A stretch of 60,755 bases of DNA, the filler included, from Sanchytrium tribonematis (taxonomy: Eukaryota): assembly GCA_018985235.1 (NCBI GenBank). It is 5 parts of 5 records of this genome, joined end to end, with 100 filler letters (N's around TTAATTAATTAA, not from the genome) between each part and the next. Parts side by side here need not be neighbours in the genome. Positions count along the whole stretch, not along the records: positions 1 to 12,188 come from JADGIG010000228.1; 4 more parts are not named here. The stretch is one strand, 5' to 3'. Numbering within the stretch: the first letter of the stretch is position 1; each line of letters opens with the position of its first letter. Positions 1 through 58,179 of this stretch are shown one piece after another. Under the pieces are notes generated by a model. The model did not search any database, was not told the DNA's origin, and saw only the letters and a program-made list of their open reading frames with translations. The position numbers and the translations under genes are program-made.

Positions 1-31
1 AATATGTAGATAGTCGTCATTTAAAGCCGGT

Positions 32-610: not shown

Positions 611-658
611 TAATTTTTTTTATTTCGGGAAAGATGGCTTAAAAACACGTACTTCTAA

Positions 659-1972: not shown

Positions 1973-2019
1973 TTTTATTGTATTACCCGTATAACTCCGT
2001 TATATCAGATGAAACCAAT

Positions 2020-3895
2020 TTATTTTATATTTAAGCGATCTGTATATTTAAAAAGGTCCTCAGCAAATCTACGCTCTTCCTTGGAAATGGCTGATTGCAG
2101 TAGCCACAATTGGACCAATTTTTTCCCATGAATATTGCATAGTGCAATCATGTAACGATAAAAGGGGTCTTTATAATTATTACAACCATATACATCAAAA
2201 TAAACTTCAAAGCTATCCAAATTGACACTTGTCATAAATTTCTGGTACAACTTGAATAATTTAGGGATCTGATCTTCCGGTCTATCAACTTTAAATGTGT
2301 TTGGTAAAAATTGATTAGAAAGAATATCCACGACGGATATAATTCCCGTAGGAGAGGTATTGGCTAGCTTCAGGAATGCGAATTCTGCATCTTCGAACTT
2401 CTTCAGTCTTTCAGAAACCAAGCCATAATGATACCACTCGGTCTGTTTAAATTGAGTATTAGGATTAGATTTGAGCTCGTTCTTGAAGCCAAAATACATT
2501 TTTAAATCTTCGTAAAGAAGCTATGTTAAAATAAAATACGATAAATAGATCATCGAGCCATCTTTCACACAATCTTTTGCTGTCTTCAGAATCTATCAAA
2601 TTTTGTTGCTCCATGACAAAAACCAAGTTTCTCAGCTCCAAAAAGCCGTCCCATGATAACTCTTCCACAACATTAACTAAAATTCCATAAGCTAATTTTA
2701 AGAATTTTGGCATAGATTGATATTGCCTTTGTTTTTTAAGATATTTGGAATCTGTGCCATCTGGAATTAATGTAAGTTCCTCTAAAAGATCTATGTTTTC
2801 TCTTATTGGGCAATATCTTGCGGAGGGTTTTAGTGTTCTATAGAATTCAATTTTCGGTTCATCGTCAAAATGAATCATTGGACAGGAATTCAAAACAATT
2901 AAAGCAGAGCCAAATTCTCTGAGTTTAATTAATATGGTTGCATAGTCGAGCCAAACTTTGGCATTTTGTGGCGAAATTTTAATAAGCATTTTTGATACAA
3001 TTTGAAGGCTTTTAAAATCACTTTTTGCCTTGAGATAGTGAAATTCAAAATGCAGCACACTCGATAGGTCTTCATGATTATTTCCATAGTCAAATATTTC
3101 AGCAAGCTCATTAAATGCAAGTTGCTCTTGCTGAGTGTTTATGAGACCCTGTAAGTAAGCAACCTTTATAAATCTATCGTAATACAATTTCGGTAGTCCA
3201 TATTTCGATCCTTCAATCCAATCTAACATTAAATCGTTTCGTCCCAAATCGTTTAAAATTTTTTTTATATAGAATAGCAAAAAATTCCCATCTTCCGAAT
3301 TGACCGCAAATGTAGTACTGGACTCCGAATACACATAATGGGCGCTCTTTAAGAACTTAATTATAGATCGTTCATCAGGAAAAACGTTTTCTCTAAAAAG
3401 AGGGCCCAAGGTGCTACTAACAGGTACATCAAGGGTGTAGGATCTTAAAACAGAAACAACATACAATTCATGCCAAAAAAGTTCGGAAAACTCCTCAATC
3501 TTTACTTCATGTCCTTGTTGATTAACTCCGTAGCTATGAACACCACCAGGTAATGAAACTTGAACTCTAACATCGACAGCACTAAATGGATTAAAAGTGC
3601 TCAATGTTCCCTTAATAACACTTTGATCCTCAAACCATGCCTTAATGTTTTGAGAATTTAAAATTCGTGCAATTGTTGCAGCCATAGACGATACGCTAGA
3701 ATTGTCCAGCCCTACAAGATGAAGAAAACAACTCTGTTTATAGCCATCAGTTTTATCTCCAGCCATTACATCTTTATCGCTATTAATAATATGCATATGA
3801 TCTGGTGGCCCCAGCTGCTTAAAACTGCTAATAAATTGACTACGAACTAACAACGATTCGCCAATACGGCCCTCAAATGCCGCAGCCATTGACAT
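2020..3895 (-). CDS. BCH1: Exomer cargo adaptor, ChAPs family (Bch1/Bud7-like); 2 exons, ~618 aa
   Basis: LGPPD, FNPFS..DVRV...PG, ALIVLNSCPM, RLCERWLDDLF; removing 2521-2539 joins ORFs 2465..3916 and 2020..2499 into WLDDLFI|LLYEDLK, restoring the family motif WLDxLFxxLYEDL. Confidence 0.88.
2521..2539 (-). other. 19-nt spliceosomal intron (gtattttattttaacatag), phase 0
   Basis: GT..AG; excision restores frame and the conserved ChAPs motif. Confidence 0.88.
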
Positions 3896-4045
3896 TTGCA
3901 ATTTTGTATGGAACAAGGGTGTGAATAATTAATAAAATTTAATTTATAAGTCAAGTCTTTTCGAATTGCTATGCTTTTGATGTTCAGTACATCATTGTAC
4001 GCGTAGCTTTTGTTTCACTGAAATAGAGTGGCTTGAAAATTTTGG

Positions 4046-6824
4046 ATGTCCAATTCTGTAGCTCCCCTAGAAATAAAAACATCTCTGCGGGGCTCTAAGC
4101 CTGATTTAGCTGTCGAAAAAGTAGTTCTTAAAGTAATTTTGCCTCGCGGTCAAACTACAGCTGTTGCTGTAAGTAAAGATGCCTCTTTTATGGAAATTTT
4201 GGATCGCGTTTGTCAAAAGAGAAATATATCTATAAATAAGCATGTATTGTTCATCAATATTCCTGAACAATTAAGTGGAGATGATGCAGATGAGGATGAG
4301 GAGCCTCAGATGGAAAGTATTTTGGTAGATCTAGTCCAGAAATTATCTGATTTTACAATTAAGAGTGTCGAACTATGTGAAGATTTACATGCTGAGATGA
4401 TTCAAATTAGACCTGACAACATCAAAGCAGAAGTTGTAGATTTATCCAAGAGTTTAGCATCACCCACAAAACTTATTCAAGAAAGAAGACAGTCTAGGCA
4501 GCAAGTGTCACCAACAATTATAAAACCAGTTCAAATACTCAAAGAAGACAAAGGTGTGATTAAATCGTTTTTCGGAAAATACTCTCCCACATCCACATCC
4601 ACATCTCCGTCCAGTCTCTCTAATAAAAAAAAGAAAGTTCAAAATGAGAAAAGGTCTGACTCAATCACCGAAAAACATAGTGAAGAGAAAGAAGGCTCCA
4701 GCTTTAGCACTCTTGGACGAGGAGGCATATTGGGGACTCTTAAGCGACAGCCAACTTTAGAACGTCGCAAAAATGATACTTCAATCTCGATTTCCAGCAA
4801 TCCAACTGGATTTGATAAGCTAGAACTGCAAGCAAATCAAATTGAAAACACTGATTCTACACACAACTCGATTGCACCGTGGGACGAGCCTGAAAAGCCC
4901 CAGCAGAATCAAATGGAGGATATTGCGCCTTTTGCTTTCCGACCACATACGCAAAGTTCCAGCTCTCAGCATGATCTATCGTTCTCAATAAAATCTAAAT
5001 CAGAGGAAAGCTCATTAATGGAGAAGGCGCATTCATTTAGGACAGTAGAATCCGAAAAGAATGATAGCGAATCACAAATTAACACTCCATTGGATGAAAA
5101 AAATTCCATTCACAGCATTCCACTTTCTGAGGATACTGCACTTAGTCCTGATTCTAAAGCTTCAATAAGGAAAAAAGCCTCAATGTCATCGATGACTTTA
5201 AGGAAACAAACTTTGACTAAAAAATCTAGGAGCGCGATTCAGCAATCTACTGACGTTTTCATTTTCGAAGTCAGCGATAATCAAGGTGTACCTCCAGAAT
5301 TACAAATTCCTGCCAACATGAAAATGGTTCGCATTTGCATCTCATTGTATGACAAAGACACCCAGATTGTTTTAAAATGCTCGCAGGAAACCATTGTGGA
5401 CGACATTTTAAAGCATCTTTGTGAAAAAAGGAATTACGATTACCAGATCCATAGTTTAGAGCCAGAAATTAATGACAATCCCTTGGAATTGGATAGGCCA
5501 ATATCTTATTACACTGAAAAATTTCAAATCTATGATTATGCCCTTATTAAAGGCGATAAAGAGTATACAATTAGATCTTACATGGATGGTGATAAAGAAG
5601 TAGCACTGTATCAAAAGTACAATAATGAAAATTCAATTTTAATGGCAGCGGCTCTCGACCGTATGATTGAAATATTGACTACCTCCGAATGCGATGACGA
5701 TTTTCTAGATACTTTTTTAATGTGTTATCGTAATTTCTTAAAACCTATTGAATTTTTCGACATCTTGCTTTCTAGATTTGATGCTCAACTTCCAGAAAAT
5801 GCCACACCAGAAGACATTGAGTATTATAGAGCAAATATACCAGTTTTACAGTCTCAAATTATGAAAATTTTCGACGTATGGATAGTCAAATATTGGTTTG
5901 ACTTCGCTGTGAATTCCGACTTGAAAAACGATCTAATTGATGTTTTAGATAGTCTCAGTGTGGATGCTGTACTAGGAGACCAAGCTATATCATTAATTGA
6001 GGCAGTCGCGTCTGAAAACGAAAAATTCGAAAATCTTGTCAACATTAGCAAGGCATCTAATAGTAAATCAAAGCAAATAGACAGCATGCTTATTCAATAC
6101 TCTTCAGATGAAGTTGCAGAGCAGCTTTCTCTAGTTAATTCGCAACTATATCAAAGTATTCATCCCATAGAATTTTTGAATTATATTTGGCGCAAAAAAG
6201 GTGAAGAGGAAGAATATCCTACTCCAATGTTAGATAGGTTTATATCAAGGTTTGATAACGAATCGTATTGGGTAGCCACAGAAATATGCGATACCAAAGA
6301 TTTAAAAAAACGGATTCAAATTCTCACCCAAATAATTTTAGTAGCAAAGAAATGCATAGATTTAAATAACTTTTTTAGCGCATTCAGTTTACTGGGCGGA
6401 TTGAGCATGCTTCCTGTTGAAAGACTTAAAAAAACTTGGAAAGGACTTAGTGTTGACACCAAAAAAGCATTTGAGGATGTACAAAAATTTTGCGACCCTT
6501 CAAAAAATATGAAAAGTTACAGAGATAAGTTAGGTATTGCTTTACCCCCAATTGTTCCCTTTTTACGTAATTTTCATTTATTTAGCCATTTATCTAAAAG
6601 ATCTAACTTTTCTTAATGATGGAAATGAAAAACGGATAAGAGGAATGTTAAATTTTGATAAATTTAGAATGATGCGGAGAACCGTTCTTGAAGTGATGGA
6701 GAGCGCCTTAATATGCTATCCCTTTATGCCGAGTCCTCATGTTCAAAATTATCTCAAAAAGCCAAGGATAGAAAAGGATTTTAAAGTTTTAAAGGAACTC
6801 AGCAAAATATTAGAGCCCCAATAA
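4046..6824 (+). CDS. Ras-family GEF (REM + CDC25 domains) with two N-terminal ubiquitin-fold/RBD-like segments; 2 exons, ~919 aa
   Basis: REM (FLDTFLMCYRNF), CDC25 (VAEQLSLV, SYWVATEI, LNNFFS, RLKKTW); removing 6567-6585 gives PPIVPFL|PIYLKDLTFLNDGN, the canonical motif. Confidence 0.9.
6567..6585 (+). other. 19-nt spliceosomal intron (gtaattttcatttatttag), phase 1
   Basis: GT..AG; excision fuses ORFs 4046..6616 and 6537..6824 and restores VPFxxxYLKDLTF. Confidence 0.9.
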
Positions 6825-7045
6825 ATTTTTTTAAAACATGACGAACGACTCATTTTAGGCCAAAAGTATCATGGTTTCCACTACTTCACATTCAACCTCA
6901 AATAATAATTTAGACAGTCAGCAGCAAATGATTCAGCATTTATTGGAAAGATCCATGGGACAAAGGAGACCACAGAATAGATTAAATGTAAACGCAGTAT
7001 TTAAGAGACGAAACGAAGAGAGGGTACTGCGCTAATAAATCGCAT

Positions 7046-10000
7046 TTATTGATATGATCTATATCCCTGTAATCTTTCTAATTCAATGGGAGACATGGCT
7101 CTTTCGCTTCCAGGAACGAACATAGCTGGGCCATTAAATTGTTGATTTTGCTGATGATTGCTTGGTACTGTTGTCACACTTGACATGCCCTGATTATTAT
7201 ATCCACCCCTGAAATAACTTTGAGTGTTGGGAACATCTGATTCCGAATCCAGATGGCCGTCTGTATTAGCGACACCAGCGCTTACCAATTGGTCGCGCAA
7301 CACAACACCTCTTTTCTGCAATTGTTTCCACTCTGCATATCTTTTCATTACTATTTTTGATGAGTCAAATAACCCTTCTTGTTCATCATGACCTCTATCA
7401 ATTCCTGCAATCAATCGAGTTTCACCCCAGCTAAATAAGTATATTATACGTGAAATCATCAAAGTGCCAAAATGCATAACTTGGTAAAACCAAATTCCAA
7501 ATGGGAAGACTCAAAAGATACACTAGCATCCAGCCAACGTAATTCCATCTTTTGGAAGTCATTGCTATTAGTAGAGCGGGTAAACCCAGAATCGCCGCCA
7601 AAAGGATTAATGGGATAACCGCAGGTTCCCAAATAATACTGCTTATGATAAGCCAAAATGTAAATATAATAGCAGCAGGAAGCACAACAGTCCCAACTAG
7701 TTCCATGAAAATCACAAACTGCATGCTTATACAAAATGTACCACACAAATCACTTACCAAGACTAATTCAAGTAAATTGTGCACTGTAGAATTAATCCAA
7801 CGCCTTCTTTGACTTAACAAAACTCTAAATTTATCAGGCACTTCAGTTTTACACAGCGCTTGTGGGATGAACATCATTTTTCTTCGAGGAAAAGTCTTGA
7901 GCATAATAGTGGTTAAAAATCGATCTTCGCCAAGCAGATATAAATTCTTCTTATGTAAGGTGTCTACGACATTCTCGCTGTATTGCTCTACAATTTCAGG
8001 ATTTCCCAAAATCGGTACAAAGAATCCATCTCCTTTTGGAGCTTTGATTCTATATGCGCAAAAACAACCAGGAAGACAAGTGACACCGCCAAATACACTT
8101 TCAAAGGCTTTGGCATTGTGATGAGCCAAATAATACTCAAATACTTGTATCATAGAAACCCAAGAAGACCACTTGTTGGAAATTCTGGTTTCGCCACACA
8201 ATCCAATGATTGCGTCATCTCTGGTAAAAGCGCTGACTAAAATTTTCAGCGAGCTTGCTTCTACACGAGTATCTGCATCAACCATAACACAAGCTTCGAA
8301 CTTGTCAGGATTATTGCGACACAAGTATTGTATTTTTTGAAATAAGTCATATTCCAAAGGTGTCATACGATCATCAAATGTCACTTTTTGCAAAAAATTC
8401 ATCAAAACGATTTGAGAATCTCTTTTACCTCTGTTACCAGGTTTAGAATTAGTTGCTTCTTCTGGTGTCCCTGTCTTAACTACAGTTATCATTGGTACCC
8501 TGTGATTAGCCGAATTATAATAGCCTGCAAATATCTTGGCCATGTTATGTCTTTTGCTACCTTCAGCAATACTCACATAACTGTAAGCCACAGGATCGTT
8601 TGGAAATGCAGGATCTAAATCCATCATTCCAACTGCAATTTCAGGAGTAGACCTTTCATTACCGCTTCCTTTGATGATACCATCACAAATAACTAAGATC
8701 AATTTATGCGTATCACTATAATCAGTACAAGCAAGCGATTCCAAAGTATTACGAAGCCCTTCTTCATCTTCTGAATACGCAGTAACAAGCAGGATTGTGT
8801 GCATAACTTCTTCCTGGTAGAACATTTCGGGGTGTGGCCAGGCTTGAGGAAACTCAGAAGACGCATCACTCATTACAGAATTACGCTTATCTAAGCTGGT
8901 CTGTGAAGGAGAATTCTTCAAGTCAAACGAGCTCATTCTATGTTTGTACTGACTATAAGCTCCAAACATGAGGCTCTGGGACTGTTGCCCTCTCTTTTGG
9001 AATTTTTGCCAATATTCTTCCTCTTGAAATTTTTTGTTCATAAAATATTCTTTTTCACTTTCTGATAATGGCTTTCCTATTCGAGCACTTAAAAACCATG
9101 CATAAAATATAGCTAAAATAAAGCGAATCAAAACAACTCCAATGATAAAAACGAGACTAACATATAATACAATGTTGGTGATTATGCAACCAGCAGTGTC
9201 CGTGTCAATCTGCGCGATTGTAAGCATTGACTCAAAACACTTTCCAATTTGTCTAGAATTATCATCTTTGTTAAGGTAAAATGTAGCGTCTTTCCCAATA
9301 AAGGAAGACTTGAAGTCGATAAAATTAAATCCGTTCAAGTTGCTTAGGTCAATTTTAGTATTTGAAATATTCAAAAGGTCAAATTTAGATGCATCAAGTA
9401 CAAAGTTGTTGTAAATAAAATAATTGCTAGAATCCTGAACTTGATCCCAGGGCATAAACACATTGACTGTTTTTCTCCACGACAAAACCTCTCCAAATGC
9501 GCCACTATCATGACAAGCTTCCTTTACATCCGAAATCTTGGTTGCTTTATTGACATCTGCACCGCCTATTGTGCAGGGAAAGATGGGAGTTGTTACTGCA
9601 TCCGTGCCAAATAACACCGAACAGGAAGAAGGATCCTGGAACATAAATGTCAAATCTCTTTGGGATGAACTGAGTCCAGATAATTCCCTCATATCTATCC
9701 CACCTCTAGGGAGTTTCGAAGATCCTCCAGGATGATTATATTGTGAAAAATCGTATCCTTTACCTCTAATAACTACCTCTGCACCATTTAAAGTATCAAA
9801 CGAGACTCGTAAAGGCGCAACTCCGCACACAGTTTGTTGAAAACCAAAAGTCAAAAAACCGACCAGCAAGGCCAGTAAAATAATAACGAAAACTAAGCTT
9901 ATTTTCTCTCTCCAGGCAATCTGCTGTCCTTTTGTAGGCAATCCGCATTTTCGTAAGCAACATAGAGGAATACAGCAAGTAACGCACAAGGCAAAATTCG

Positions 10001-10229
10001 ACCATATTCTTCTTGTCGCCGATATAGGCTGATCATAAAAATAGGTGCGCTTCATTGTTGTAGGCACTTTTCGCATTGTCTTAATATATTCTCCACTTTC
10101 TTGTTTTCTTTTAATACTTCGTTGGCGAGGAATTTGAGATCTACCTTTAGTTAAAGACCCGTTTAATTTGCTTACGAAACCGGGCTCTTGACTCGAATGC
10201 TCCAACGGTGCAAATTGATCGGAATTCAT
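7046..10229 (-). CDS. CHS3: Chitin synthase, division 2 (class IV/Chs3-like); 2 exons, ~1054 aa
   Basis: AWREK, KPGNRGKRDSQ, VDADT, QVFEY, TCLPGCF, LGEDRFL, SQRRRWINST; removing 7431-7449 gives WHFDDFT|WGETR. Confidence 0.92.
7431..7449 (-). other. 19-nt spliceosomal intron (gtataatatacttatttag), phase 2
   Basis: GT..AG; excision restores the conserved DDF(S/T)WGxTR motif. Confidence 0.92.
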
Positions 10230-10298
10230 TTTTTAAAAGTTTGAGTGCAAATGTTTTAAATTGAAAAACGATATCAAATATTATCCAATCAAATTACT

Positions 10299-11024
10299 TT
10301 ATTCACCATAAAACTTGCTTTTCAAGTCGACGATATTAACACCACGTTGAATTGAAATATCCTGTATAGATCGTTGAAACTTTAGAGCCTGCATCATTGC
10401 CTTCGACACATTCATGACGTTTGTACTTCCATGAACTTTTGATCCAATATCAAGAATTCCTGCACATTGGCAGATAGCATGTAAAACATGATTGCATCTA
10501 AGCCCATAACCAACTGGGACCGTCCTTAATTCTAAAAGTGTTGCCTTAAATCTCGTCGTTGCATCATGATATAATGTTCTATTTTGGAAGAGAGGCACGG
10601 ATACCAAATTATGGTACGCATCTGCCAAAGCCTTGGGAATCGCATCCCTTGGTTGTTTAGCTTTCCCAATACCTAACCCAACTAAGCCATTCTGATTTCC
10701 AATAACTGCTAGGACTCTAAAAGACGATTGTTTTCCACCCTTGGTAACACGCACAACTCTATCGACAGCCAGGACGTGTTTTTCGTAGTTCCATATTTCT
10801 TTCCGAATTAGGCCCTTGTCGCTTTTGTTCTCGTTGATAGGTTTCGGGAGTTCTAAGGTAAGATCTCTTCCGAAATCAACCATTGATCCTGGTGTTGAAA
10901 ACTTAAAATTCGGCAAGAGATTTGGTGGCAAATATTTTCCAAGCTTGAGATTCTGGTAATTAAAATTTATGTCTGTTTTCCATAAGTCATTTGGTGTCCG
11001 GATATTTGGAAGTCTTTTCAACAT
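10299..11024 (-). CDS. MRPS5: Mitochondrial ribosomal protein uS5m
   Basis: RVVRVTKGGK...VLAVIGNQNGLVGLGIGKA; GYGLRC...CAGILD; S5 N and C domains. Confidence 0.88.
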   Translation of the reverse strand: MLKRLPNIRTPNDLWKTDINFNYQNLKLGKYLPPNLLPNFKFSTPGSMVDFGRDLTLELPKPINENKSDKGLIRKEIWNYEKHVLAVDRVVRVTKGGKQSSFRVLAVIGNQNGLVGLGIGKAKQPRDAIPKALADAYHNLVSVPLFQNRTLYHDATTRFKATLLELRTVPVGYGLRCNHVLHAICQCAGILDIGSKVHGSTNVMNVSKAMMQALKFQRSIQDISIQRGVNIVDLKSKFYGE

Positions 11025-11263
11025 TCGAGGGGGTAATTAATTATCAAAATGTTCATAATCTGAGTAGCTTAGTCTCCTAACAAAATTGAACTTATGTCTA
11101 TGGATAATAAATGTTCAATCTTTATACCTAAGTTAAAAATTAAAAAGAAAATCTTACCATTTTGCATTTACAAGATAATGAAAAATATTATACGAATAAG
11201 TTTACTAATAATCTGACTCAAGAATAAATTGTTTCGATTATGAATCTTAGCTCAAGAGGATGA

Positions 11264-12067
11264 TCAGTTTTGAAGTATATCAGAATCCAGAATGTCAAAA
11301 ACATCGTACACGCAAGGCTTCTTACTTTCGAATAACGTTAGTCTAAAATCCTGATTTTGACCAGCGATATAACAATATGATCTTATAGGAGAATCATTAG
11401 AAGAACAGTCTTCAATAACGTTGAATGGCTGAAATATAGTAAGTCCGCTATATGTGCGAAGTTGTTCAACTGAACCAATTTCCGGAATATCCTTTGGAAT
11501 TAATTTGCTTTCTTGAAAGTGTATTGCATATCCTGATTCAATTTTCCAGGTATAATTGCCTGCGTCATAATGAATAATATCTCTAAGAGATTTTTGCACA
11601 AAGACTTTGAAGGATTCGGTGTCAGTGGAATTATACGATCTTCTAGATAAGGAACCAACCACCAAAGGCGTCCGCAAATCTGACGGAACTAAACGAAAAG
11701 CGGAAAAATTTGGGGGAACTAAGTAATTTTCAAATATCGAAAGATAGTTCTTTGTATTAATATTAAATTTCGCTGGATTATATGTAGGGTAAAAAGGCAG
11801 AATCTTGAATCCCGAATGACGCAATACATCATAATGATTCAGTCTAGACCATTTATGAAGCATTTTGATATAATTGCGTCCCTCTAACGCATTAATTTTA
11901 AAATCTGCAGTGATTTCATTTTCTTGAGGATCTAAATTCACATCAAGTGTTTCCTTCAAAGTATAACATGCCAATTTTTGTAACTCGTATGGCAATGGAA
12001 AGTTGGAAACACTTAATCGAGCAATATCGGCATTGACGTGCAACTTCGCGAAAGAGAAACGGAACAT
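11264..12067 (-). CDS. Hypothetical protein (267 aa), possible mitochondrial presequence
   Basis: ATG-initiated long ORF, MFRFSFAKL N-terminus; no family recognised. Confidence 0.55.
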   Translation of the reverse strand: MFRFSFAKLHVNADIARLSVSNFPLPYELQKLACYTLKETLDVNLDPQENEITADFKINALEGRNYIKMLHKWSRLNHYDVLRHSGFKILPFYPTYNPAKFNINTKNYLSIFENYLVPPNFSAFRLVPSDLRTPLVVGSLSRRSYNSTDTESFKVFVQKSLRDIIHYDAGNYTWKIESGYAIHFQESKLIPKDIPEIGSVEQLRTYSGLTIFQPFNVIEDCSSNDSPIRSYCYIAGQNQDFRLTLFESKKPCVYDVFDILDSDILQN

Positions 12068-12188: not shown

Positions 12189-12288
12189 NNNNNNNNNNNN
12201 NNNNNNNNNNNNNNNNNNNNNNNNNNNNNNNNTTAATTAATTAANNNNNNNNNNNNNNNNNNNNNNNNNNNNNNNNNNNNNNNNNNNN
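12189..12288. other. Artificial contig-joining spacer
   Basis: 100 nt: N-run, TTAATTAATTAA (stops in all six frames), N-run. Confidence 0.98.
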
Positions 12289-13347: not shown

Positions 13348-13620
13348 TTGACTTATCCTTCTAACTTAGTGTCGCATCCAACACGTTAAATCAAAGCGTG
13401 ATTGGATGTTATTTAGATCAAAATGTTCTAATTAATCTAGTCAATTCAAAACAAGATCCAAGTCCTCTAATAAGGCTTGGATCCCAATCAGATGATGGCG
13501 CATGCTTAACTAAACAAAGCATGCGCTCTAAAAAAAGGTATATAAGCGCGAGGGCCTCATAAATAAATAAGTAATTTATTATTAATGACTTTTACTTCAA
13601 ATCTTCTCTTTAACGATATC
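13212..13620 (+). repeat. Probable 3' LTR region with duplicated 87-bp 5' end (13212-13298 and 13370-13456); right boundary approximate
   Basis: Purine-rich GGTGGGAG then TGTCGCATCC...; the 87-bp block recurs with 2 mismatches; TATATAA (~13539) and AATAAA (~13562) follow the second copy. Confidence 0.65.
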
Positions 13621-15055: not shown

Positions 15056-15074
15056 TTGTGACTAAGTAATTGAT

Positions 15075-15390: not shown

Positions 15391-15494
15391 TATAATGACG
15401 AAGAACTTGAGTCAGTAACATTAGGTTTTGGACAACGGTGCCATTGGTGCTTCAGTGAAGAAACTAATATTAGAAGTGCCAAGAATTTAAGTAC

Positions 15495-29698: not shown

Positions 29699-32600
29699 TT
29701 ATTTCAATTTTTGCTCTTGATCGCAGCCGTAATACGAATCACATAGCAGATAAACTTTTCCTAAACTCTTGACATCAATTTGTAGCTTGACTTTCAACCC
29801 CATTTCGATTTCATTGCAATAATGAATTTGAGATCCATCGGCTACAAGAAGCCACCAGTGCTCAAATTTAGAGAAGTAGCCCTTGGAAATTGGAATCTTC
29901 CAGGATTCGTCTTCATCATCTCTTTCCAAAAAAACGCTTACTTTAAAACCATCATTGTCCTCTTTCCAATGACACTCCAACTCGATATTTGGGTACTTAT
30001 TAACAAAATCGGCTACAGCGCTGACTTGATTTTCATTCAAAGGCTTAAGCATTGTGTCACGATCCTCGTCTTCCATTTCCATGACATCGTAAATATTGTG
30101 GACCTTGAACTGGGAAAAATTCAATTGAGAATGATTTGGTATTTGCAAGAGGGGATTTGATAGATCGTTGGACTGTTGTGTTAGCATTTGCATTAGTTCT
30201 ATACTGGACATCAAAGGAATAGCAAATCCTTTTAAATGGCAGACTTGTATCATTGCATGAACATGTCTTTCCACATTATTCAGAATTGTTTTCAAAGAAT
30301 TTTCCAACTGATTTTCTAATTTAATTCTTTGAAGATAGCAGGTAATTAGCGCGAACAGCTTGTTTTCGTGTTGATAATATTCTCTTATCTGATCAGGCAC
30401 AGATCCAAGTTGCAAATGACTAAGAATTTCTAGAAGTGTACTTCGTTTTGTATCTCTTTTTATGTTCAAATTTATGATATCGATATTTGTATGAGTAATA
30501 TCATAATGATGTGCAATAGTGTAAAGAGGGGTCCATTTGGAATTCAACAAATACATTTGAGACAGCTCAGATTGCCCTTGTTCAACAAGCTCACTAAAGA
30601 AAACATTAATATCTTCACTAGTATAATATTGTGGATTTCTCCTACACCTACTAAACAAAAAAGACTTTGAAAGCTCACCAAGCAAAAAAGGTATTTCAAT
30701 TTCCGAATATTGCATTAATAATTGTTCAATGTTTGTATGCAAACGACTCTCAACTGGAAATCCATTCTCCATCAAAACTTTCTTTACAAAGTCCTTATCA
30801 GAATGCTGAATAATAACTTCATGGGTCGCAAAACTTGCTGCTCTCGTAAGTTGAGTAAAACCATCAACAAAAATCGAAACTGATGAAAACTGGGCAAAAA
30901 AATGATAAATGAACAACGGGTGGACCACAACATTGAATTTCGAAGATACCAGATTAAGAACCGCTTCAACATCTTCTGTAGTAAGGTTTGGGCTCAAAAA
31001 TAAAACTTTGTTGTCAAAGGCAGCGTTAAGGAGGTTACTGGTAAATATTTTTGAATGTGTGGCAGTTTTCAAAAACGATCGTACAACCACTTCAACTTCT
31101 TTAGTGATAACCAATCCGCTAGAGATATGTTTGATATTTGTTTGCTGTCTGAAATGTAGATTCAGAGGATTATGAAAGTGCAAACTCAAAGACATTGACA
31201 ATTTAGGGTCGCAATCTAAAAGATGACAAAAATCTCTATAGTTGGGAATGGGTTCACTCAAACATTTCAATTTTTTGGTATAATTTTGGCATTTAATTAA
31301 AAATGTTTCATATTCTGGTCGTAGATTTTGAACATTCAACGAAATAATTGATGTGAACTTAACAACGCTAAAGTTAAGTAATCTCTGTGCCTCCTCCACT
31401 GTTTTAATCATGACATCTAATTGCAAATTTGCTCTAGAAATACATTTCGATAAATAATCGAGCCTCGCCTTCAATTGCCTAGTATTAGTTGGCGAAACTA
31501 TCAAAATTTTAATATTGCTGTATGTTTCAATGTCATTCAATATAATAGAATCTATTATGAACGAGAAATATTTTGGATGGAGTGCAAATATACTATTACT
31601 TTCCTGTCTGATCAAGAAATCGAGTTGATCGTGAAGCGAACTCAGTTTGTAATGCGAACTGAGATAATCTAGATAATTGGATTGGAGTTCACTTTGTTCG
31701 ATATCCACGAGGTCGTCTTGAGCTTCGTCCATTTTATCACTCACTCTGATATTTGTAGGTATGGAAACCGGATTAATTTGTGATATGAATCTTAATGAAT
31801 GGATATGAAATAAAAAATACTTTGGTAATTCTTTACATTTGAATTGCAGTTCTTCTACAGTGTGTGAGTTTCTCAGTTTCACTTGCTTTGAACAGATAAT
31901 ATTCATTCCAATTGCATCCGTAACTACAAGATTATAAAACTCACGATAATGATGAACATCTGCATCATAATCAAAAAGCGGTTCAATCTCAATAATTAGC
32001 TTAAACCATTGTGGAGTTAACGGTTTCAAGTGACACACAATTTCAAAATTTGGAATTTTACGTATCCCACTGTAAACTATTTTAGCATCATTAAGACTAC
32101 CTAAGACTTCCGCCAGTTGTTCTACCTTAAATCGCTGAAGTCTTTGGAAGGAAATATTTTTCTTTTGTAATTTAGTCATTGTCAATGATGGAATATATGG
32201 AATCTGCTGCAAGACATTAATGGGCCAAATTTTTTTGTCAATCATTTTTGCTATATCTAGGCAACACTTGTATGGCATAAACCATTTAAAGTAGCTGCAA
32301 ATATCCGCCAAAGCTCTAAATATTCTTGAAGCCGACTGGCTTATAAAAATGAGATCGCTGCTTAGTGCAAATCCATCTAAAGCATTATTGGTAATGTATG
32401 ATTGTAAAAGTAAATTCACCTTACATAAATTGGAATCAAATCCCTCACGAACAGGAATTGGCACCAAGTCTAACAAACGCTGTAGCTCAATTTTTTCTTC
32501 CTCTCTGACTGGTATAAATCGAAATTCCTGACTCATACTAAAAATGCGAAATAAATCCACCATATTGAAATGAGGTTTAAGAAATTGATAATATGTAATT

Positions 32601-35038
32601 AAACTGTCAAAAGGCAAATAATAGTATGACGCTATCTTACCCAAGTCAGTTGACACGATGTGGGGAGACTTGTAGAATGCCATTCCACTTTTTTCCAAAT
32701 TGATAAATACAGAATGAATTATGTTTATGCGTCTTTGCATCAGAGTCGGATCCTGCTCGAGTTCCTCCAAAGGAATGTGGTAAACATGAGGAGATTTTAT
32801 CATTCTAACAAAAAGATAAGTGCGTAACAAATATTCTGCACCTTCAACTAAATTTCTTATATTCCCGAGAACGATTTCACTATTAATCACGTCAACAATC
32901 TTTGCAAAAAGCTGCGATTCTATTGGGAACTGACTGTTCAGAATGCATAAATAATATGGCAATTCATGATATTCCGTAATAACAACTCCTCTACCAAATA
33001 CGTCAAATCCTGGTCTCCCCGCTCTCCCAATCATTTGAAGACAGGCTTCATGACCAATTTCTTCAAATTGACCCCGCTCCGGATTATAAACTTTTGTCCC
33101 TTTGATAATACAAGTGTGTGATGGTAAATTAATACCAACTGCCAAAGTGCTAGTCGCTACCAGAACTTGAATATGTTTATCTGCAAATAAATCCTCAACC
33201 AATGTACGGTCACTTTTTGTTAGACCGGCATGATGAATAGCGAAACCAGCGCCTAATATTTTTTTGAGATGTGGATTGTCACATTCACCTACAACTGATT
33301 CCAAAACATTTCTCGAGTTTTCAGCTCCAGTAAACAATTTGCCGAGTGTGTTTCTCTCTATGGCATACTCAAGTAGTGTCTCTGCGGTTTTCCAAGTTTC
33401 TTTTCTAGAATGTACAAATATGATAACCTGATATTCACCCGCATCTTCCATTACTTTTTCGTACACAATTTCATTCATCAATTCCAATCTCTTAAATTTT
33501 TTTAAAGTAATACCTATAAACTCTTGCTGCAACGGACAGGGTCTATAAGAGGAATCAAAATAAAAAGTATCTTTTTCCGAACATCTTAAAAATGCACTTA
33601 CATCCATGTAGTTGGGCAGAGTCGCGCTTAATCCAATTATTCTGATGGAATACGATAACGACCTGGCAATTATGGTTTCTAAAACGGAACCTCTGATATC
33701 GTGTAGTAGATGAATTTCATCAACTATCAAAAGTTTTACCATATCGATATGCTCTGCTTCCATGCCTTTTCGGGTAATAATATCCCATTTTTCAGGAGTG
33801 GTGATTATAACATTGGTGTTTAAAATTTCTAGTTTAGACATTGCAGAGTCTCCGGTCAATTCATTCACTGTTAAACCCAGTGGGCTAAGTTTCACTCCAA
33901 AAGTATGAACTAGTTCCTGTACTAAAGCCTTAAGTGGGGCCACATAAACTATTTTAAATTCATCTTTGAGAATTTCGCCATTTATAGTATATCTTTGAAC
34001 TAATTCTAGCATGGCAAGCAACGAAATATTGGTCTTCCCACTTCCGGTTGGTGCGGCCACAAGCATATTGCCAGATGATTTAAAGCTACTATCAAATGTT
34101 AAAGTTTGTATTGTATTTAAATGTGTCATACTCGGAAAGCAGGGCTGGGCCCAAATGGGTAAATCTACAATTGGAATATGATGAATATTTTCTCTTTCGT
34201 GCTCCTTCATAGGGATATGAATTTCTTCATAACCCTGTTTTTGTTTCTTATAAGAACCTTGTGGAAGCTTGCAATTTTTGTTTGCTTGGAAATGACCTCG
34301 ATCTTTAAATATAAAGTCATTGAAATCTAGGTATTTGGTAGGTATGATTTCACTTATATTTCGTGGCTTGACATGCAAGTTAGCTAGTCTATCTTGTATC
34401 TGTGAAAGGTTTTCCAAAATAAACATAATAATGTCATTTTTTTCATAATTAAATATTTTAATTAAATGATTTTCCAACGACATAGGATTTTCACTTTTCT
34501 TTATAAGCTCTAAAATTTCGATTTTAACGTTTGTGTCAAAGATGCTTAATTTGGAATCTAATTCTCCTAATAGGTCAATTATTTCCAAGTCTTCAATATG
34601 GTCCTCTTCAACTACTTCCATTTCTTCCATTTCTTCAAAATCTACATTTACGTTTTCTTCAAGTTGTGCAGATTCACTCGTCCCTAAATAACTAATCATC
34701 TGCAAGACAATGGATTTGTGTTTTTCGACATCCTTGAAAATTTCTTTTAAAGTATCGTCAGTATGATGGATCATATTATAGGCCAACTCATGAAGATCAG
34801 AGCTTGGTAAATCCCCAACGTTTTTTACAATATACTGGAGCAGATGTGCATAGTATTGTCTTTGAATTTCTGTTTTAGGGTGATAATGCAAAGTGGCGTT
34901 TTCCAAAATTGTACCTCCTTTGGGTCCTGCTTGTGAGTGTGGCGTCGTCCTTGATTTCTTAACAGAATGTGCTCTGACTCCCATTTCTCTCATACTTATA
35001 TTTCCAATAATTGAATTGGCTCTTCCAGAATCACTCAT
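29699..35038 (-). CDS. BRR2: U5 snRNP RNA helicase Brr2 (1779 aa; degenerate second cassette)
   Basis: LPQGSYK...GYEEIHIP, APTGSGKT, TTPEKWDIITRK, DEIHLL, LSATLPNY, QMIGRAGRP, Sec63 domains, terminal CDSYYGCDQE. Confidence 0.93.
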   Translation of the reverse strand: MSDSGRANSIIGNISMREMGVRAHSVKKSRTTPHSQAGPKGGTILENATLHYHPKTEIQRQYYAHLLQYIVKNVGDLPSSDLHELAYNMIHHTDDTLKEIFKDVEKHKSIVLQMISYLGTSESAQLEENVNVDFEEMEEMEVVEEDHIEDLEIIDLLGELDSKLSIFDTNVKIEILELIKKSENPMSLENHLIKIFNYEKNDIIMFILENLSQIQDRLANLHVKPRNISEIIPTKYLDFNDFIFKDRGHFQANKNCKLPQGSYKKQKQGYEEIHIPMKEHERENIHHIPIVDLPIWAQPCFPSMTHLNTIQTLTFDSSFKSSGNMLVAAPTGSGKTNISLLAMLELVQRYTINGEILKDEFKIVYVAPLKALVQELVHTFGVKLSPLGLTVNELTGDSAMSKLEILNTNVIITTPEKWDIITRKGMEAEHIDMVKLLIVDEIHLLHDIRGSVLETIIARSLSYSIRIIGLSATLPNYMDVSAFLRCSEKDTFYFDSSYRPCPLQQEFIGITLKKFKRLELMNEIVYEKVMEDAGEYQVIIFVHSRKETWKTAETLLEYAIERNTLGKLFTGAENSRNVLESVVGECDNPHLKKILGAGFAIHHAGLTKSDRTLVEDLFADKHIQVLVATSTLAVGINLPSHTCIIKGTKVYNPERGQFEEIGHEACLQMIGRAGRPGFDVFGRGVVITEYHELPYYLCILNSQFPIESQLFAKIVDVINSEIVLGNIRNLVEGAEYLLRTYLFVRMIKSPHVYHIPLEELEQDPTLMQRRINIIHSVFINLEKSGMAFYKSPHIVSTDLGKIASYYYLPFDSLITYYQFLKPHFNMVDLFRIFSMSQEFRFIPVREEEKIELQRLLDLVPIPVREGFDSNLCKVNLLLQSYITNNALDGFALSSDLIFISQSASRIFRALADICSYFKWFMPYKCCLDIAKMIDKKIWPINVLQQIPYIPSLTMTKLQKKNISFQRLQRFKVEQLAEVLGSLNDAKIVYSGIRKIPNFEIVCHLKPLTPQWFKLIIEIEPLFDYDADVHHYREFYNLVVTDAIGMNIICSKQVKLRNSHTVEELQFKCKELPKYFLFHIHSLRFISQINPVSIPTNIRVSDKMDEAQDDLVDIEQSELQSNYLDYLSSHYKLSSLHDQLDFLIRQESNSIFALHPKYFSFIIDSIILNDIETYSNIKILIVSPTNTRQLKARLDYLSKCISRANLQLDVMIKTVEEAQRLLNFSVVKFTSIISLNVQNLRPEYETFLIKCQNYTKKLKCLSEPIPNYRDFCHLLDCDPKLSMSLSLHFHNPLNLHFRQQTNIKHISSGLVITKEVEVVVRSFLKTATHSKIFTSNLLNAAFDNKVLFLSPNLTTEDVEAVLNLVSSKFNVVVHPLFIYHFFAQFSSVSIFVDGFTQLTRAASFATHEVIIQHSDKDFVKKVLMENGFPVESRLHTNIEQLLMQYSEIEIPFLLGELSKSFLFSRCRRNPQYYTSEDINVFFSELVEQGQSELSQMYLLNSKWTPLYTIAHHYDITHTNIDIINLNIKRDTKRSTLLEILSHLQLGSVPDQIREYYQHENKLFALITCYLQRIKLENQLENSLKTILNNVERHVHAMIQVCHLKGFAIPLMSSIELMQMLTQQSNDLSNPLLQIPNHSQLNFSQFKVHNIYDVMEMEDEDRDTMLKPLNENQVSAVADFVNKYPNIELECHWKEDNDGFKVSVFLERDDEDESWKIPISKGYFSKFEHWWLLVADGSQIHYCNEIEMGLKVKLQIDVKSLGKVYLLCDSYYGCDQEQKLK

Positions 35039-35069
35039 GCAAATAGTAAAACACGGATTTGCTTTTTAA

Positions 35070-51115: not shown

Positions 51116-51142
51116 TTTAATTCAAAATTAATAAATTTGAGA

Positions 51143-52223: not shown

Positions 52224-53085
52224 ATGCAGCGACTTCCATTTGATCAGGAATTGCGTCAATTAAAAAAGATTTTAAAGCAATATGAGAAGGAATTCTTTAA
52301 ATTCCATCGTCGTAAACCATCCAAATCCGATTGGACATCCTGTAGAAAAGCCCAATATAAAAGATACGATTATCTCAAACAGCGCATTGAAAATAAAACA
52401 GAAATGACTGATTTAGAGAAATTAGAATACATACCCAAATTAGCATTCAAATCTATGGATGAACCACCCACTAGAATAGTCACAACGACTAAAATAGAAA
52501 TACAAGCCACGCCTCATAAAAATAGAGAATTATTGAGTGTCAATGAGGAAGATATATTCATCACACCTACTAAACAGGACTCTGCTGTTATTTTGACACC
52601 TATTAAAAGCCAAGAAATTGAATTTATTCCTTGTTATTCCACTGAGAAACAATTACCTCAAATTTCAATGGCAAGTTCCCCAACTCCTATTAAATCCAAC
52701 TTACTATTTAGAACACCTCGAAAATCACTTAATTTATCCATTTCCAATGATATTAATTGGGCGGATTTGGATTCACCTTCAAAACCATGTGAAAATATAG
52801 AATTCAAAATTCCCGATGAATTTCTGTCTAAAGAGCTTAGAGCATTTCAGAAAGAATCAACTAGTGATCATAATGATGTCTCTAGTGACTTTGCGCCATC
52901 AGATCAAGGTATTTTAAACTTAATTAGAAAATGGATCTCCTACAAAAAAGAGGAAATTAAATAAACGAGCCAAGGCAAATAGAGTCATTAAATCATTGAG
53001 GGAGACTGAGGATAACGAGGTTTCCATTGTAAATAATAGAAAAATGACTAAAGTGTCCAATAATTACGTCAGATTCAAATTATAA
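52224..53085 (+). CDS. SLD2: Sld2/Drc1 (RecQL4 N-terminus-like) replication protein; 2 exons, ~280 aa
   Basis: LKQYEKEFFKFHRRKPSKSD...YKRYDYLK N-terminal domain; many TP/SP CDK sites; removing 52909-52927 adds the C-terminal VSNNYVRFKL motif. Confidence 0.75.
52909..52927 (+). other. 19-nt spliceosomal intron (gtattttaaacttaattag), phase 1
   Basis: GT..AG matching the consensus; excision opens a 52-codon exon ending in the Sld2-like NNYVR motif and TAA/AATAAA. Confidence 0.78.
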
Positions 53086-53129: not shown

Positions 53130-54082
53130 ATGCCATTTGGTAAAATTGATTTATATACTCCAAAGTACTTTTACACGTGTAGTTTGGGAGGAGCTTTATG
53201 TTGTTCATTGACTCATTTTATAGTCACGCCATTAGATTTGATCAAATGTAGATTACAAGTCAATTCAAGCAGATATCCCACATTATGGAGTGGATTTAAA
53301 GACATTATACACACTAAGCAAGTATTTAGGGGTGGATTGAGTACATTATTGGGATATGGAGCACAGGGTAGCTTATTATTTGGCAATTATGAAATATTAA
53401 AACATTACATTTCTGAGCATGTTGGACATGAAAATGCTCATAAATATAGACCATTGATCTATTTAGCATCTTCCTTCATAGCAGAGACTATTGGTGATGT
53501 CGCATTGGCACCATTTGAAGCCATTAAAGTGCGAGTGCAAACAAATGATACATTTCCAAATAAGTTGATACCTGGATTGTCAGCCATATACAAACAAGAG
53601 GGCATGAATGGATTCTACAAGGGTTTTATGCCATTATGGAGTAGACAAGTACTTTATACGATGAGTAAATTCGTGGCATTCGAGAAAATTGTAGAAAACA
53701 TTTATTTGAAATTGGGTCAAAATAAAGAAGATGTCAGCAAATCCAAGCAATTAGGTATCTCATTTGTAGGTGGGTATATAGCAGGTGGTATTTGGTACTC
53801 ATTTTAGTATTTTGCGCAGTAGTTAGTCACCCAGCAGATGTTTTAGTAAGTAAAATGAACACAATCACCAAGTTAAAGAATGAAAGTAGCACTCAATTAC
53901 TAAGCAGAATCATAAAACAGCCTCAATTTAGTATGTGGACTGGTATTGGGACCAGGATATTGATGATTGGCAGTTTAACTGCAATTCAATGGTTAATTTA
54001 TGATACATTTAAAGTGGCTGTGGGTTTGCCAACGACTGGCGTATACAAGTATGAGAAGCCAATCGTCGCAGTTGATTTCTAA
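53130..54082 (+). CDS. Mitochondrial phosphate carrier; 2 exons, ~310 aa
   Basis: TPLDLIKCRLQV, APFEAIKVRVQT, SHPAD; removing 53788-53807 gives GGYIAG|VFCAVVSHPAD. Confidence 0.92.
53788..53807 (+). other. 20-nt spliceosomal intron (gtatttggtactcattttag), phase 1
   Basis: GT..AG; excision restores frame and the conserved third carrier repeat. Confidence 0.9.
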
Positions 54083-56815: not shown

Positions 56816-58179
56816 TTATTTCAATCTCATCTTTAATTCTCTACTATATTTCCCATAATAATGTGAATACATGGGATAAATACTCATTAAAATCATCAAT
56901 GCAATAAAAATAGATGCAATTGGATCAAATATTAAATATCCGGTATAATGAATTAATAAAGTGGATATAATGACACCTAAATGAATTATAAATTACCAAC
57001 ACTGCCTAGGGTATCTGCTAAAATGTGTAGAAAGACAGCACGCATGTTGGAATGTTCATGGGAATGTTCATGAGAATGTTCATGGGAATGCGAATGATCG
57101 TGGCTATGGCTATGGCTGTGGTCATGTTCGTGATCATCGTGGTCGTTGTGGTGATGCGCATCATGTCCATGGTCATGTCCATGATCGTGTCCGTGTCCGT
57201 GATCATGTGCTTCATGAAAGAATACAACGCCAATTAAATTCACAATTAATCCACCAATACTGACCCCCAATAATCCATCTAAATGCATTTCTTGTGGATA
57301 AAACATCCTTTCAATGCCTTCCATGCTAATCATAAAACTAATCAAGACCAATAAAATGGAATTGATAAAAGCACCTAAAGATTCATTTTCATTGGTGAAA
57401 TATAAACCAATGCCTAATGCCAAACAATCAAAAAACATATGGATGGAATCACTAATTAAGCCTAATGAGTTGGTTAAATAGCCATAAATCATTTGGATGA
57501 GCATATATGAGAAATTTAAGAGGAGGAAAATAAATAATTTTTTGGAAGATTGGGTGTGTTTGAAATTGATGAGGAAATGATGGATAAAATGGATGATTAA
57601 GATGGTGGAGATGGATAAGATGTATAACGAATCATTTAGAAATAGTGTAGTTAATAAAATATGGATAATATTGGCAAAATGGATGGAAATAGGGGATAAA
57701 TTGGAATAATGTAAAATGAGAGAAATAGTGATTAAAAAAATCCAATCTTCTAATTCACCATAAAATATACGACAAATGGATTCAAATGCGATTAATATGA
57801 ATAAATAAATGTCATTTTGAGGGGATATTTGATCTTGAGAGGGAGATGGGGAAATTGGCAAATATTGTGATTTGAGATTGGTGTGGAATAGATAATAGGG
57901 GATGGTAAATATGATGAGATAATTGGATTCAAAGTACATGATGGTATAAATGAGGATAGAAATGAGTAAATAGGGTATTTTGGGTAATTTGATTTGCAAT
58001 TGTTTTAAATAATACATGGATAATATGTGAAATGGATTAGATAATGCACACATTAATAGTAATGGATCATCTTTGGAGAGATAGAGCCATGTAAATAGAT
58101 TATATGGGAAATGATGGGCCAAAGCAGAAAGAATGGCCAGTTTCATGGAGAAGACTGAAAATACTGAAATCTGAATCAT
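56816..58179 (-). CDS. CDF zinc transporter, Msc2/ZnT5/ZnT7-like; 2 exons, ~447 aa
   Basis: TNSLGLISDSIHMFFDC, His-rich loop, AVFLHILADTLGSV|GVIISTLLI...FDPIASIFIA after removing 56977-56996. Confidence 0.9.
56977..56996 (-). other. 20-nt spliceosomal intron (gtaatttataattcatttag), phase 1
   Basis: GT..AG; excision restores TM5-TM6 (HxxxD..GSVGVI, DP). Confidence 0.9.

What the first reader, a model, noticed from the sequence alone, without database searches (positions are those of the whole stretch)
6567..7449. Intron consensus with a fused branch point and 3' splice site
Aligned at their 3' ends, all six introns begin GTA(A/T) and end TAG. A YTNA motif places an A at -6 in five of them (TTAAcatag, TTTAtttag, CTTAtttag, CTTAattag, TTCAtttag) and at -7 in one (CTCAttttag). 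No room remains for a polypyrimidine tract, and the lariat loop would be only ~14-15 nt. This parallels the branch-A position reported for Stentor tiny introns. It implies U1 and U2 snRNPs cannot bind simultaneously in the canonical way (inference).
Basis: partly seen in the sequence, partly recalled or inferred. Interest (0 to 1): 0.8.

Follow-up and report, generated by a model that had tools for sequence, protein, structure and literature searches.

The report
19–21-base introns in sanchytrid fungi
Genes of this algae-parasitising fungus are interrupted by introns only 19–20 bases long, which public protein sets miss, and the cell likely cuts them out using an adenosine six bases from the intron's end, at a size where textbook spliceosome assembly would not fit.

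Summary
Confirmed and extended. The window is a sanchytrid fungus: it groups with Amoeboradix gromovi, sister to Blastocladiomycota. All six introns exist (19–20 nt, GTA…TAG), two inside the given coordinates; a seventh is probable. Removing four of them gives junctions that align without gaps to homologues. The RasGEF intron is shared by 4 of 4 sanchytrids and sits where two other genomes have 57- and 63-nt introns, so it is an old intron that shrank. The six alone barely support A at −6 (shuffle P=0.12). But four introns read from relatives' run-on proteins (19, 19, 20, 21 nt) all force A at −6, and the motif extends to AYTNAY, a U-rich ordinary branch site. No RNA or lariat data exist here, so splicing and branch point are inferred. 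U1/U2 exclusion is untested; A. gromovi keeps U1-70K, U2AF and Dbr1 labels. Tiny introns are known (Stentor, Mikrocytos, nucleomorphs, Encephalitozoon ≥22 nt), and this scan noted 25–38-nt ones in Rozella and Neolecta. Four searches found no paper on sanchytrid introns; these are shorter than any fungal intron I found in print.

The parts
6567..6585 (+). 19-nt intron, phase 1, in the RasGEF gene; candidate branch A at 6580
   Evidence: Pfam RasGEF positions 51-152 before and 154-181 after it; junction aligns without a gap to Blastocladiomycota and chytrid homologues; break at the same place in 3 of 3 other sanchytrids; 57- and 63-nt introns at this position in L012/L013 and L007/L010
4046..6824 (+). 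RasGEF gene (RBD, RasGEF_N, RasGEF), two exons; about 919 aa spliced, 856 aa in the public protein set
7431..7449 (-). 19-nt intron, phase 2, with an in-frame stop, in the chitin synthase gene; candidate branch A at 7436
   Evidence: Pfam Chitin_synth_2 18-489 before and 487-526 in the downstream frame; removal restores the conserved DDF-T-WG junction; absent in 3 of 3 other sanchytrids
7046..10229 (-). chitin synthase gene, two exons; 1054 aa spliced, 932 aa in the public protein set
2521..2539 (-). 19-nt intron, phase 0, in a ChAPs-family (Chs5p-Arf1p-binding) gene
   Evidence: junction aligns without a gap to homologues; two close relatives (P0286, P0287) break at the same place
56977..56996 (-). 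20-nt intron, phase 1, in a cation-efflux (Msc2/ZnT5-like) gene
   Evidence: Pfam Cation_efflux 99-151 before and 153-189 after; gap-free junction; absent in 2 of 2 sanchytrid relatives
53788..53807 (+). 20-nt intron, phase 1, in a mitochondrial carrier gene; candidate branch A at -7
   Evidence: third carrier repeat lies in the downstream frame; the 20-nt cut rather than a 23-nt alternative is chosen from the phosphate-carrier motif as recalled, not tested by a tool
52909..52927 (+). 19-nt intron, phase 1, in a Drc1/Sld2-like gene
   Evidence: ORF joining and consensus only; downstream exon had no Pfam or NCBIfam match
   Evidence: 226 open codons before, 38 after, same consensus; no homology test succeeded
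29699..35065 (-). Brr2 (U5-200K) spliceosomal helicase, 1788-aa ORF, shortened, second helicase cassette degenerate
   Evidence: 1157 bits to human Brr2 against 926 to ASCC3; no significant match over query 185-529 of the C-terminal half

Best explanation
These 19-21-nt GTA...TAG segments interrupt conserved sanchytrid genes at exact codon positions and are most likely removed by the major (U2-type) spliceosome, with the adenosine at -6 predicted to be the branch point. Shown: the segments, their lengths, the gap-free protein junctions after removal (4 of 7), the shared positions, and A at -6 in 10 of 11 introns of known length. Inferred: (1) U2 snRNA pairs with AYTNAY, a U-rich form of the usual ACTAAC site, and bulges the A at intron base 14-16; (2) the AG three bases on is taken as acceptor by distance, with no pyrimidine tract and probably no need for Slu7/Prp18; (3) the donor is reduced to GTAWTT without +5 G, so U1 and U6 would pair weakly and briefly; (4) because 14-16 nt cannot span the usual pre-catalytic geometry, assembly would be compact or stepwise (U1 leaving early, a short U2 helix), giving a 14-16-nt lariat loop opened by Dbr1. 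At least one intron is an old one that shrank from about 60 nt.
For: Junctions: RasGEF, chitin synthase, zinc transporter, ChAPs; Pfam positions run on across three of them. Relatives: all 3 other sanchytrid RasGEFs break at the same codon, one with an in-frame 7-aa insert; 2 close ChAPs relatives break at the same codon. Back-translating the run-on tails allows one GT..AG length each for four of five (21, 20, 19, 19 nt) and forces A at -6 in 4 of 4, a pyrimidine at -9 and at -5 in 4 of 4, and A at -10 in 3 of 4; P(4 of 4 A)=0.007 at the window's intron composition. The orthologues are only 64-73% identical as proteins. The best U2-pairing A falls at -6/-7 in 5 of 7 window introns, ties counted (shuffle P=0.012). 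Same RasGEF position with 57- and 63-nt GTAAG introns in 4 of 13 scorable metagenome loci, two distinct sequences. Brr2 in the window. A. gromovi annotation has labels for Prp8, Brr2, U1-70K, U1A/U2B'', Luc7, Prp40, U2AF1, U2AF2, SF1/BBP, SF3B1, Prp5, Prp38, Yju2, Cwc25, Isy1 and Dbr1. Slu7 is dispensable when branch and acceptor are 9 nt or fewer apart (PMC10158995).
Against: No spliced read or lariat was seen, so every mechanistic step is inference. The six introns alone give P=0.12 for the A column after allowing any position. The four relative introns come from only two positions; counted as two independent sites P=0.08. Total U2-pairing score is no better than shuffled introns (P=0.27). 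A second A column exists (+10 in 6 of 7, -10 in 5 of 7). The A. gromovi tail stops early and fixes no length unless the intron is 14 nt. The Sld2 and unknown-gene introns have no homology test, and the carrier intron has a 23-nt alternative. snRNAs were not seen (0 Rfam hits in the window).
Confidence: 0.75

Rival explanations
1. The introns are real, but the branch point is the A near +10 (-10 in 19-nt introns), giving a 10-nt loop as in Stentor's 15-nt introns and a longer gap to the AG.
For: A at +10 in 6 of 7 window introns and at -10 in 5 of 7; it scores best or ties for U2 pairing in 4 of 7.
Against: In the 20- and 21-nt relative introns +10 is T while -6 stays A; -6 holds in 10 of 11, -10 in 8 of 11; an A four bases before the branch is what the usual ACTAAC site contains.
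Confidence: 0.1
2. The introns are defined by their ends and fixed length only, as described for Bigelowiella nucleomorph introns; any nearby A serves, and the -6 excess is partly chance in U/A-rich sequence.
For: Small sample; P=0.12 on the six alone; U2-pairing sum not above shuffles; 18-21-nt nucleomorph introns have no discernible branch A (PMC6009652).
Against: A at -6 forced in 4 of 4 relative introns of three lengths, with flanking pyrimidines; motif in 6 of 6 against 2 of 27 look-alikes; the three in-frame look-alikes I tested were coding sequence.
Confidence: 0.1
3. Donor recognition bypasses U1 altogether (as in Cyanidioschyzon, and perhaps Encephalitozoon), U2 binding first and U5/U6 reading the GTA.
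For: +5 G in 0 of 10 determinable introns; no label for U1C, Prp39 or Prp28 in the A. gromovi table; U1 is absent or unidentified in those reduced spliceosomes.
Against: U1-70K is labelled in both sanchytrid sheets, and Luc7, Prp40 and U1A/U2B'' in A. gromovi. Missing labels are weak: 1 of 6 control genes (Prp19) was also unlabelled, and the table was made from unspliced ORFs.
Confidence: 0.12
4. The segments are not spliced: they are assembly errors, broken genes, or sites of ribosomal frameshifting.
For: No RNA confirmation; short microsporidian introns are often poorly spliced and some predicted ones proved false (PMC6349667).
Against: Same DNA in X1 contigs; seven segments of 19-20 nt share ends and consensus; exact restoration of conserved junctions; downstream exons conserved with relatives; a position shared with conventional 57-63-nt introns.
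Confidence: 0.03

Closest known systems
Encephalitozoon cuniculi introns (Microsporidia; PMC3629993 and PMC2483917, passages)
   Same: Fungal-lineage parasite, GT-AG, very short; putative branch consensus CTAAYTT, which would put the A at -6 if it directly precedes AG (that adjacency is recalled, not read)
   Different: 22-76 nt, 37 introns in all, strict motifs, U1 snRNA not identified. Here 19-21 nt, about 0.19 introns per coding kb in the window, degenerate branch motif, no +5 G, U1 proteins labelled in the relative; a separate lineage, sister to Blastocladiomycota
Stentor coeruleus tiny introns (PMC9505925, passages)
   Same: GUA start, U-rich body, UAG end, putative branch A at -6, snRNP machinery largely kept
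   Different: 15-16 nt with a 10-11-nt loop, no strong branch consensus, ciliate. Here 19-21 nt, 14-16-nt loop, recognisable AYTNAY motif
Bigelowiella natans nucleomorph introns (PMC6009652, passages)
   Same: Same size class (18-21 nt), GT-AG
   Different: No discernible branch A, about 3 introns per gene, endosymbiont remnant nucleus
Mikrocytos mackini introns (PMC10245619, passages)
   Same: Parasite, narrow length range, conserved intron sequence
   Different: 16-17 nt, rhizarian, spliceosome cut to 17-19 proteins with only U2, U4 and U6 snRNAs identified; the sanchytrid relative has labels for far more parts
Fixed branch-to-AG distance in Yarrowia, Trichomonas and Giardia (PMC2483917, passages)
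   Same: Branch site anchored a few bases from AG, no 3' pyrimidine tract
   Different: Those introns are long (medians of about 100-200 nt for Trichomonas and Yarrowia in that paper's table) with a strict ACTAAC, so there is no donor-to-branch crowding
Myxobolid and dicyemid short introns (PMC13644364, parts 1-2 of 3)
   Same: Parasites, donor reduced to GTa, old intron positions kept while the introns shrank
   Different: Median 22-27 nt; their A's move away from AG as length grows, whereas here the A stays at -6 from 19 to 21 nt

Membership tests
Major (U2-type) spliceosomal intron | GT...AG ends whose removal restores the coding frame at a conserved junction | tested here: met
   7 of 7 have GT-AG; gap-free junctions shown for 4 of 7, partial Pfam support for 1, none for 2
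Major (U2-type) spliceosomal intron | Branch-site motif able to pair with U2 snRNA, near the 3' end | tested here: inconclusive
   A at -6 in 10 of 11 and position non-random (P=0.012), but pairing sum not above shuffles (P=0.27); U2 motif recalled, the organism's U2 not seen
Major (U2-type) spliceosomal intron | Excised from mRNA as a lariat | not testable with these tools
   needs RNA or lariat reads
Major (U2-type) spliceosomal intron | Host encodes a major spliceosome | tested here: met
   Brr2 in the window; Prp8, SF3B1, U2AF, U1-70K, Dbr1 labels in the A. gromovi table, U1-70K and Dbr1 also in the 171 held rows for S. tribonematis. snRNA genes not seen
Major (U2-type) spliceosomal intron | Position shared with conventional introns of other species (supporting, not required) | tested here: met
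   RasGEF site: 57- and 63-nt introns in 4 of 13 scorable loci. Not shown for the other six
Tiny-intron systems (Stentor, Mikrocytos, nucleomorph type) | All or nearly all introns of the genome fall in a narrow range under about 25 nt | tested here: inconclusive
   11 of 11 measured introns are 19-21 nt, but only one window and four relative introns; no whole genome held; longer introns not excluded
U1-less reduced spliceosome (Cyanidioschyzon type) | Loss of U1 snRNP proteins | tested here: not met
   U1-70K, Luc7, Prp40 and U1A/U2B'' labels in A. gromovi; U1 snRNA itself not tested
Minor (U12-type) intron | Extended RTATCCTT donor and CCTTAAC branch (motifs recalled) | tested here: not met
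   donors are GTAWTT-like in 7 of 7

The most novel reading that the evidence does not exclude
Sanchytrids carry the shortest spliceosomal introns in Fungi, a thousand or more per genome and all unannotated. They are handled by a spliceosome that keeps U1, U2AF and SF1 but has shed the factors that release U1 and reach for distant acceptors (Prp28, U1C, Prp39, Slu7, Prp18), so a weak donor passes from U1 to U6 without a helicase on a 14-16-nt loop. The lineage still gains new 19-20-nt introns (chitin synthase, zinc transporter).
Probability: 0.2. Interest if true: 0.8.

Novelty: new member of a known kind. Interest (0 to 1): 0.55.

Why it matters
How a spliceosome fits on an intron under about 25 nt is an open question, so far posed by ciliates, nucleomorphs and heavily reduced parasites. 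Sanchytrids add an independent case inside Fungi, with a readable branch motif, an intron position that can be matched to a 60-nt counterpart, and apparently a fairly complete spliceosome, so the adaptations can be traced against close fungal outgroups. In practice, the published sanchytrid proteomes were called as plain ORFs on genomic contigs (PMC8371127). Intron-bearing genes are therefore truncated or split (932 against 1054 aa, 856 against about 919 aa here), which bears on gene-loss claims and phylogenomics for this phylum.

Tried and rejected
No whole genome is held, so no genome-wide logo or snRNA search. Sequencing runs: no RNA holder listed; this says nothing about expression. Metagenome scan with sanchytrid chitin synthase N-termini: 0 loci. 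Scan with RasGEF: 47 loci, none sanchytrid; I examined the first 20, of which 13 were scorable, and left the 27 weakest unexamined. Rfam on the window: 0 hits. In-frame look-alikes at 57750-57770 (21 nt), 6063-6080 (18 nt) and 32077-32100 (24 nt) align as ordinary coding sequence and were rejected. Candidate 13240-13258 lies in an integrase-like ORF and adds only 4 codons: left out of all counts. Longer alternatives at the same sites (34 nt RasGEF, 26 nt zinc transporter) would delete conserved residues. PDB, Pfam and NCBIfam searches could not fix the carrier, Sld2 or unknown-gene junctions. A raw count of GTA..TAG by length shows no excess at 19-20 nt over simulated sequence: the introns are too few to show that way. 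Literature: 'sanchytrid+intron', 'Sanchytrium+introns', 'Amoeboradix+intron' and 'Sanchytriomycota+splic' listed no paper on these introns; searches for shorter fungal introns found none under 22 nt, but the library lacks most subscription papers.
Full report
What the window is. A gene-dense eukaryotic stretch of about 35% GC with fungal genes. The chitin synthase's best hits are three proteins at 69-72% identity, one of them from Amoeboradix gromovi, then Catenaria and Sorochytrium. A RasGEF tree of 24 sequences puts the window, A. gromovi and two unnamed metagenome proteins on one branch (100/100), sister to two Blastocladiomycota (100/98). So this is a sanchytrid other than A. gromovi. I did not match it to a species record.

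The observation. Four are 19 nt and two are 20 nt. All start GTA(A/T) and end TAG, with A at -6 in five and at -7 in one. A seventh, 58846-58864(+), is probable. Contigs of DNA run X1, which may be the window's source, carry all seven without indels.

Are they introns? For four, removal gives a junction that aligns without a gap to homologues: RasGEF and chitin synthase, zinc transporter, ChAPs. Pfam positions run on across the cut: RasGEF 152|154, cation efflux 151|153, chitin synthase 489|487. The carrier's third repeat lies in the downstream frame, but its 20-nt boundary rests on a recalled motif against a 23-nt alternative. The Sld2 and unknown-gene introns rest on ORF joining and consensus alone. 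Three in-frame look-alikes proved to be coding sequence.

Relatives. Their stored proteins behave like unspliced ORFs, so they run into any intron. All three other sanchytrid RasGEFs break after the same codon: two stop within 4-6 residues and one carries a 7-residue insert. Two close ChAPs relatives break at the window's codon. Enumerating all codon choices, each of four tails allows just one GT..AG length, given a homologous downstream frame where one could be read: 21, 20, 19 and 19 nt. The fifth (A. gromovi) stops too early to fix a length. At the same RasGEF codon, 4 of 13 scorable metagenome loci (two distinct sequences, organisms not placed on a tree) hold 57- and 63-nt GTAAG introns, each with a branch-like A about 15 nt from the end by eye; 9 of 13 have none, and some of those may be transcripts (first 20 of 47 loci examined). 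Four chytrid protein models also show irregularities at this site. The RasGEF intron is therefore old and has shrunk about threefold. By contrast the chitin synthase intron is absent from 3 of 3 relatives and the zinc transporter intron from 2 of 2: recent gain, or repeated loss.

Is the branch motif more than chance? On the six alone, barely: P=0.12 when any column may win, 0.034 with seven. The relatives are the real test. A at -6 is forced in 4 of 4, a pyrimidine at -9 and -5 in 4 of 4, and A at -10 in 3 of 4. That is P=0.007 for the A, or 0.08 if only the two positions are counted as independent. In all, 10 of 11 have A at -6 and one at -7. The motif reads AYTNAY, a U-rich version of the fungal WCTRAY consensus (PMC2483917, passages). 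The best U2-pairing A lies at -6/-7 in 5 of 7 (P=0.012), yet the summed pairing is not above shuffles (P=0.27), because U-rich RNA pairs easily. A rival A column at +10/-10 exists, but +10 is T in the 20- and 21-nt relative introns. The donor is GTAWTT-like; +5 is G in 0 of 10 determinable introns, while both long introns at the shared position have it.

The machinery. The window encodes Brr2, about 350 residues shorter than the human protein, with a degenerate second helicase cassette. In the eggNOG table of A. gromovi (PMC8371127 supplement file 4, 3,755 rows, searched by recalled KO and KOG numbers and by names) I found labels for Prp8, Brr2, Snu114, Prp3, Prp6, Prp31, Cef1, Prp38, U1-70K, U1A/U2B'', Luc7, Prp40, U2AF1, U2AF2, SF1/BBP, SF3B1, Prp5, Prp2, Prp16/22, Prp43, Yju2, Cwc25, Isy1 and Dbr1. 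I found none for U1C, Prp39, Prp28, Slu7, Prp18, Smu1 or Prp19. Prp19 was one of six controls, so a missing label is only a lead. The S. tribonematis sheet is cut at 171 rows, and three supplements could not be read; they may mention introns.

How it most likely works. Inferred, not shown: ordinary two-step splicing by the major spliceosome, with U2 on AYTNAY and the branch at intron base 14-16. The AG three bases downstream would be chosen by distance; Slu7 is dispensable at 9 nt or less (PMC10158995, passages). Human assembly needs about 50 nt between donor and branch, for simultaneous snRNP binding and to span two extended helices 15 nm apart (PMC6692369, passages). Here there are 14-16, so the canonical geometry cannot be copied. 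It does not follow that U1 and U2 exclude each other: the expected pairing sites touch without overlapping and U1 proteins are kept in the relative. A weak donor, early U1 release and a short U2 helix is my best guess (about even odds against simultaneous compact binding).

Comparison. It works like the tiny-intron systems of Stentor (15-16 nt, putative branch at -6; PMC9505925, passages), Mikrocytos (16-17 nt; PMC10245619, passages), the Bigelowiella nucleomorph (18-21 nt, no visible branch; PMC6009652, passages) and myxobolids (PMC13644364, parts 1-2 of 3). Within Fungi the nearest case is E. cuniculi, 22-76 nt (PMC3629993, passages; PMC6349667, part 1 of 4 and passages). Intron density here is 7 in about 36 kb of coding sequence, 0.19 per kb, against 0.01 for Microsporidia and 1.3 for Allomyces in PMC8476143 (passages; a different way of counting). 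Seven introns in about 27 genes would extrapolate to one or two thousand per genome; this is a rough inference from one window.

Novelty. The sanchytrid genome paper called ORFs with TransDecoder on contigs and does not discuss introns in its main text (PMC8371127, passages). PMC10459994 and the held part of PMC9010356 had no relevant passage. Four searches listed nothing on sanchytrid introns, and three (PMC10815200 passages) gave no fungal intron under 22 nt. The library is incomplete, so 'shortest in Fungi' is a claim to check. Earlier notes of this scan report 25-32-nt introns in Rozella and about 37-nt introns in Neolecta, none in sanchytrids; I did not test them.

Verdict. Real feature, observation confirmed, interpretation partly supported. 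A new, apparently unreported lineage of a known kind of system, at a record size for Fungi as far as I could search. Interest 0.55.

Noticed in passing
window 7431-7449(-) and 56977-56996(-): These two introns are missing from all sanchytrid relatives seen (3 of 3 and 2 of 2), and none of 39 environmental chitin synthase hits breaks at that site. Possible recent gains of 19-20-nt introns; no flanking duplication was obvious by eye.
   Followed up: partly
window 2521-2539(-): The sanchytrid ChAPs intron lies four codons upstream of a site where 7 of 10 truncated homologues from other organisms break: a near-intron pair, suggesting gain plus loss or sliding.
   Followed up: partly
window 29699-35065(-): Brr2 is about 350 aa shorter than human Brr2, with a shorter N-terminus and an unrecognisable second helicase cassette, though its last Sec63 unit is kept.
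   Followed up: partly
A. gromovi eggNOG table, PMC8371127 supplement file 4: No labels for Prp28, U1C, Prp39, Slu7, Prp18, Smu1 or Prp19. SF1/BBP appears as two adjacent ORFs on one contig, perhaps split by a tiny intron.
   Followed up: partly
Stored proteins of both window genes are truncated at the intron.
   Followed up: yes
window 12189-12288, 24361-24460, 36512-36611, 48656-48755: Four blocks of 44 N + 12 nt + 44 N with TTAATTAA beside the Ns look like artificial joints, so the window may be five pieces that are not truly adjacent.
   Followed up: no
window 12550-23578 and 47600-48700: Transposon remnants: integrase-like, RT-RNase H, Ulp1 protease next to Pif1 helicase fragments (Helitron-like), DDE_3 and gag-aspartyl protease. 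An intron-like 19-mer at 13240-13258 lies in the integrase-like ORF.
   Followed up: no
whole window: GTA..TAG segments of 18 nt number 31 against 17.8 in simulated sequence. The one in-frame case tested was coding; the excess is unexplained.
   Followed up: partly
window 1-12000 and 50500-52200: Run X1 differs by 13 substitutions and a 6-nt deletion at 4587, and shows variants and about threefold depth over the divergent H2A/H2B pair: a second haplotype or strain, and possibly extra histone copies.
   Followed up: no
window 59600-60755: A repeated element in both orientations, with high depth and an opposite-strand joint in X1; possibly transposon ends.
   Followed up: no
window 39365-40594(-): A CAP59-like (cryptococcal mannosyltransferase family) gene, E=2.5e-49.
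   Followed up: no
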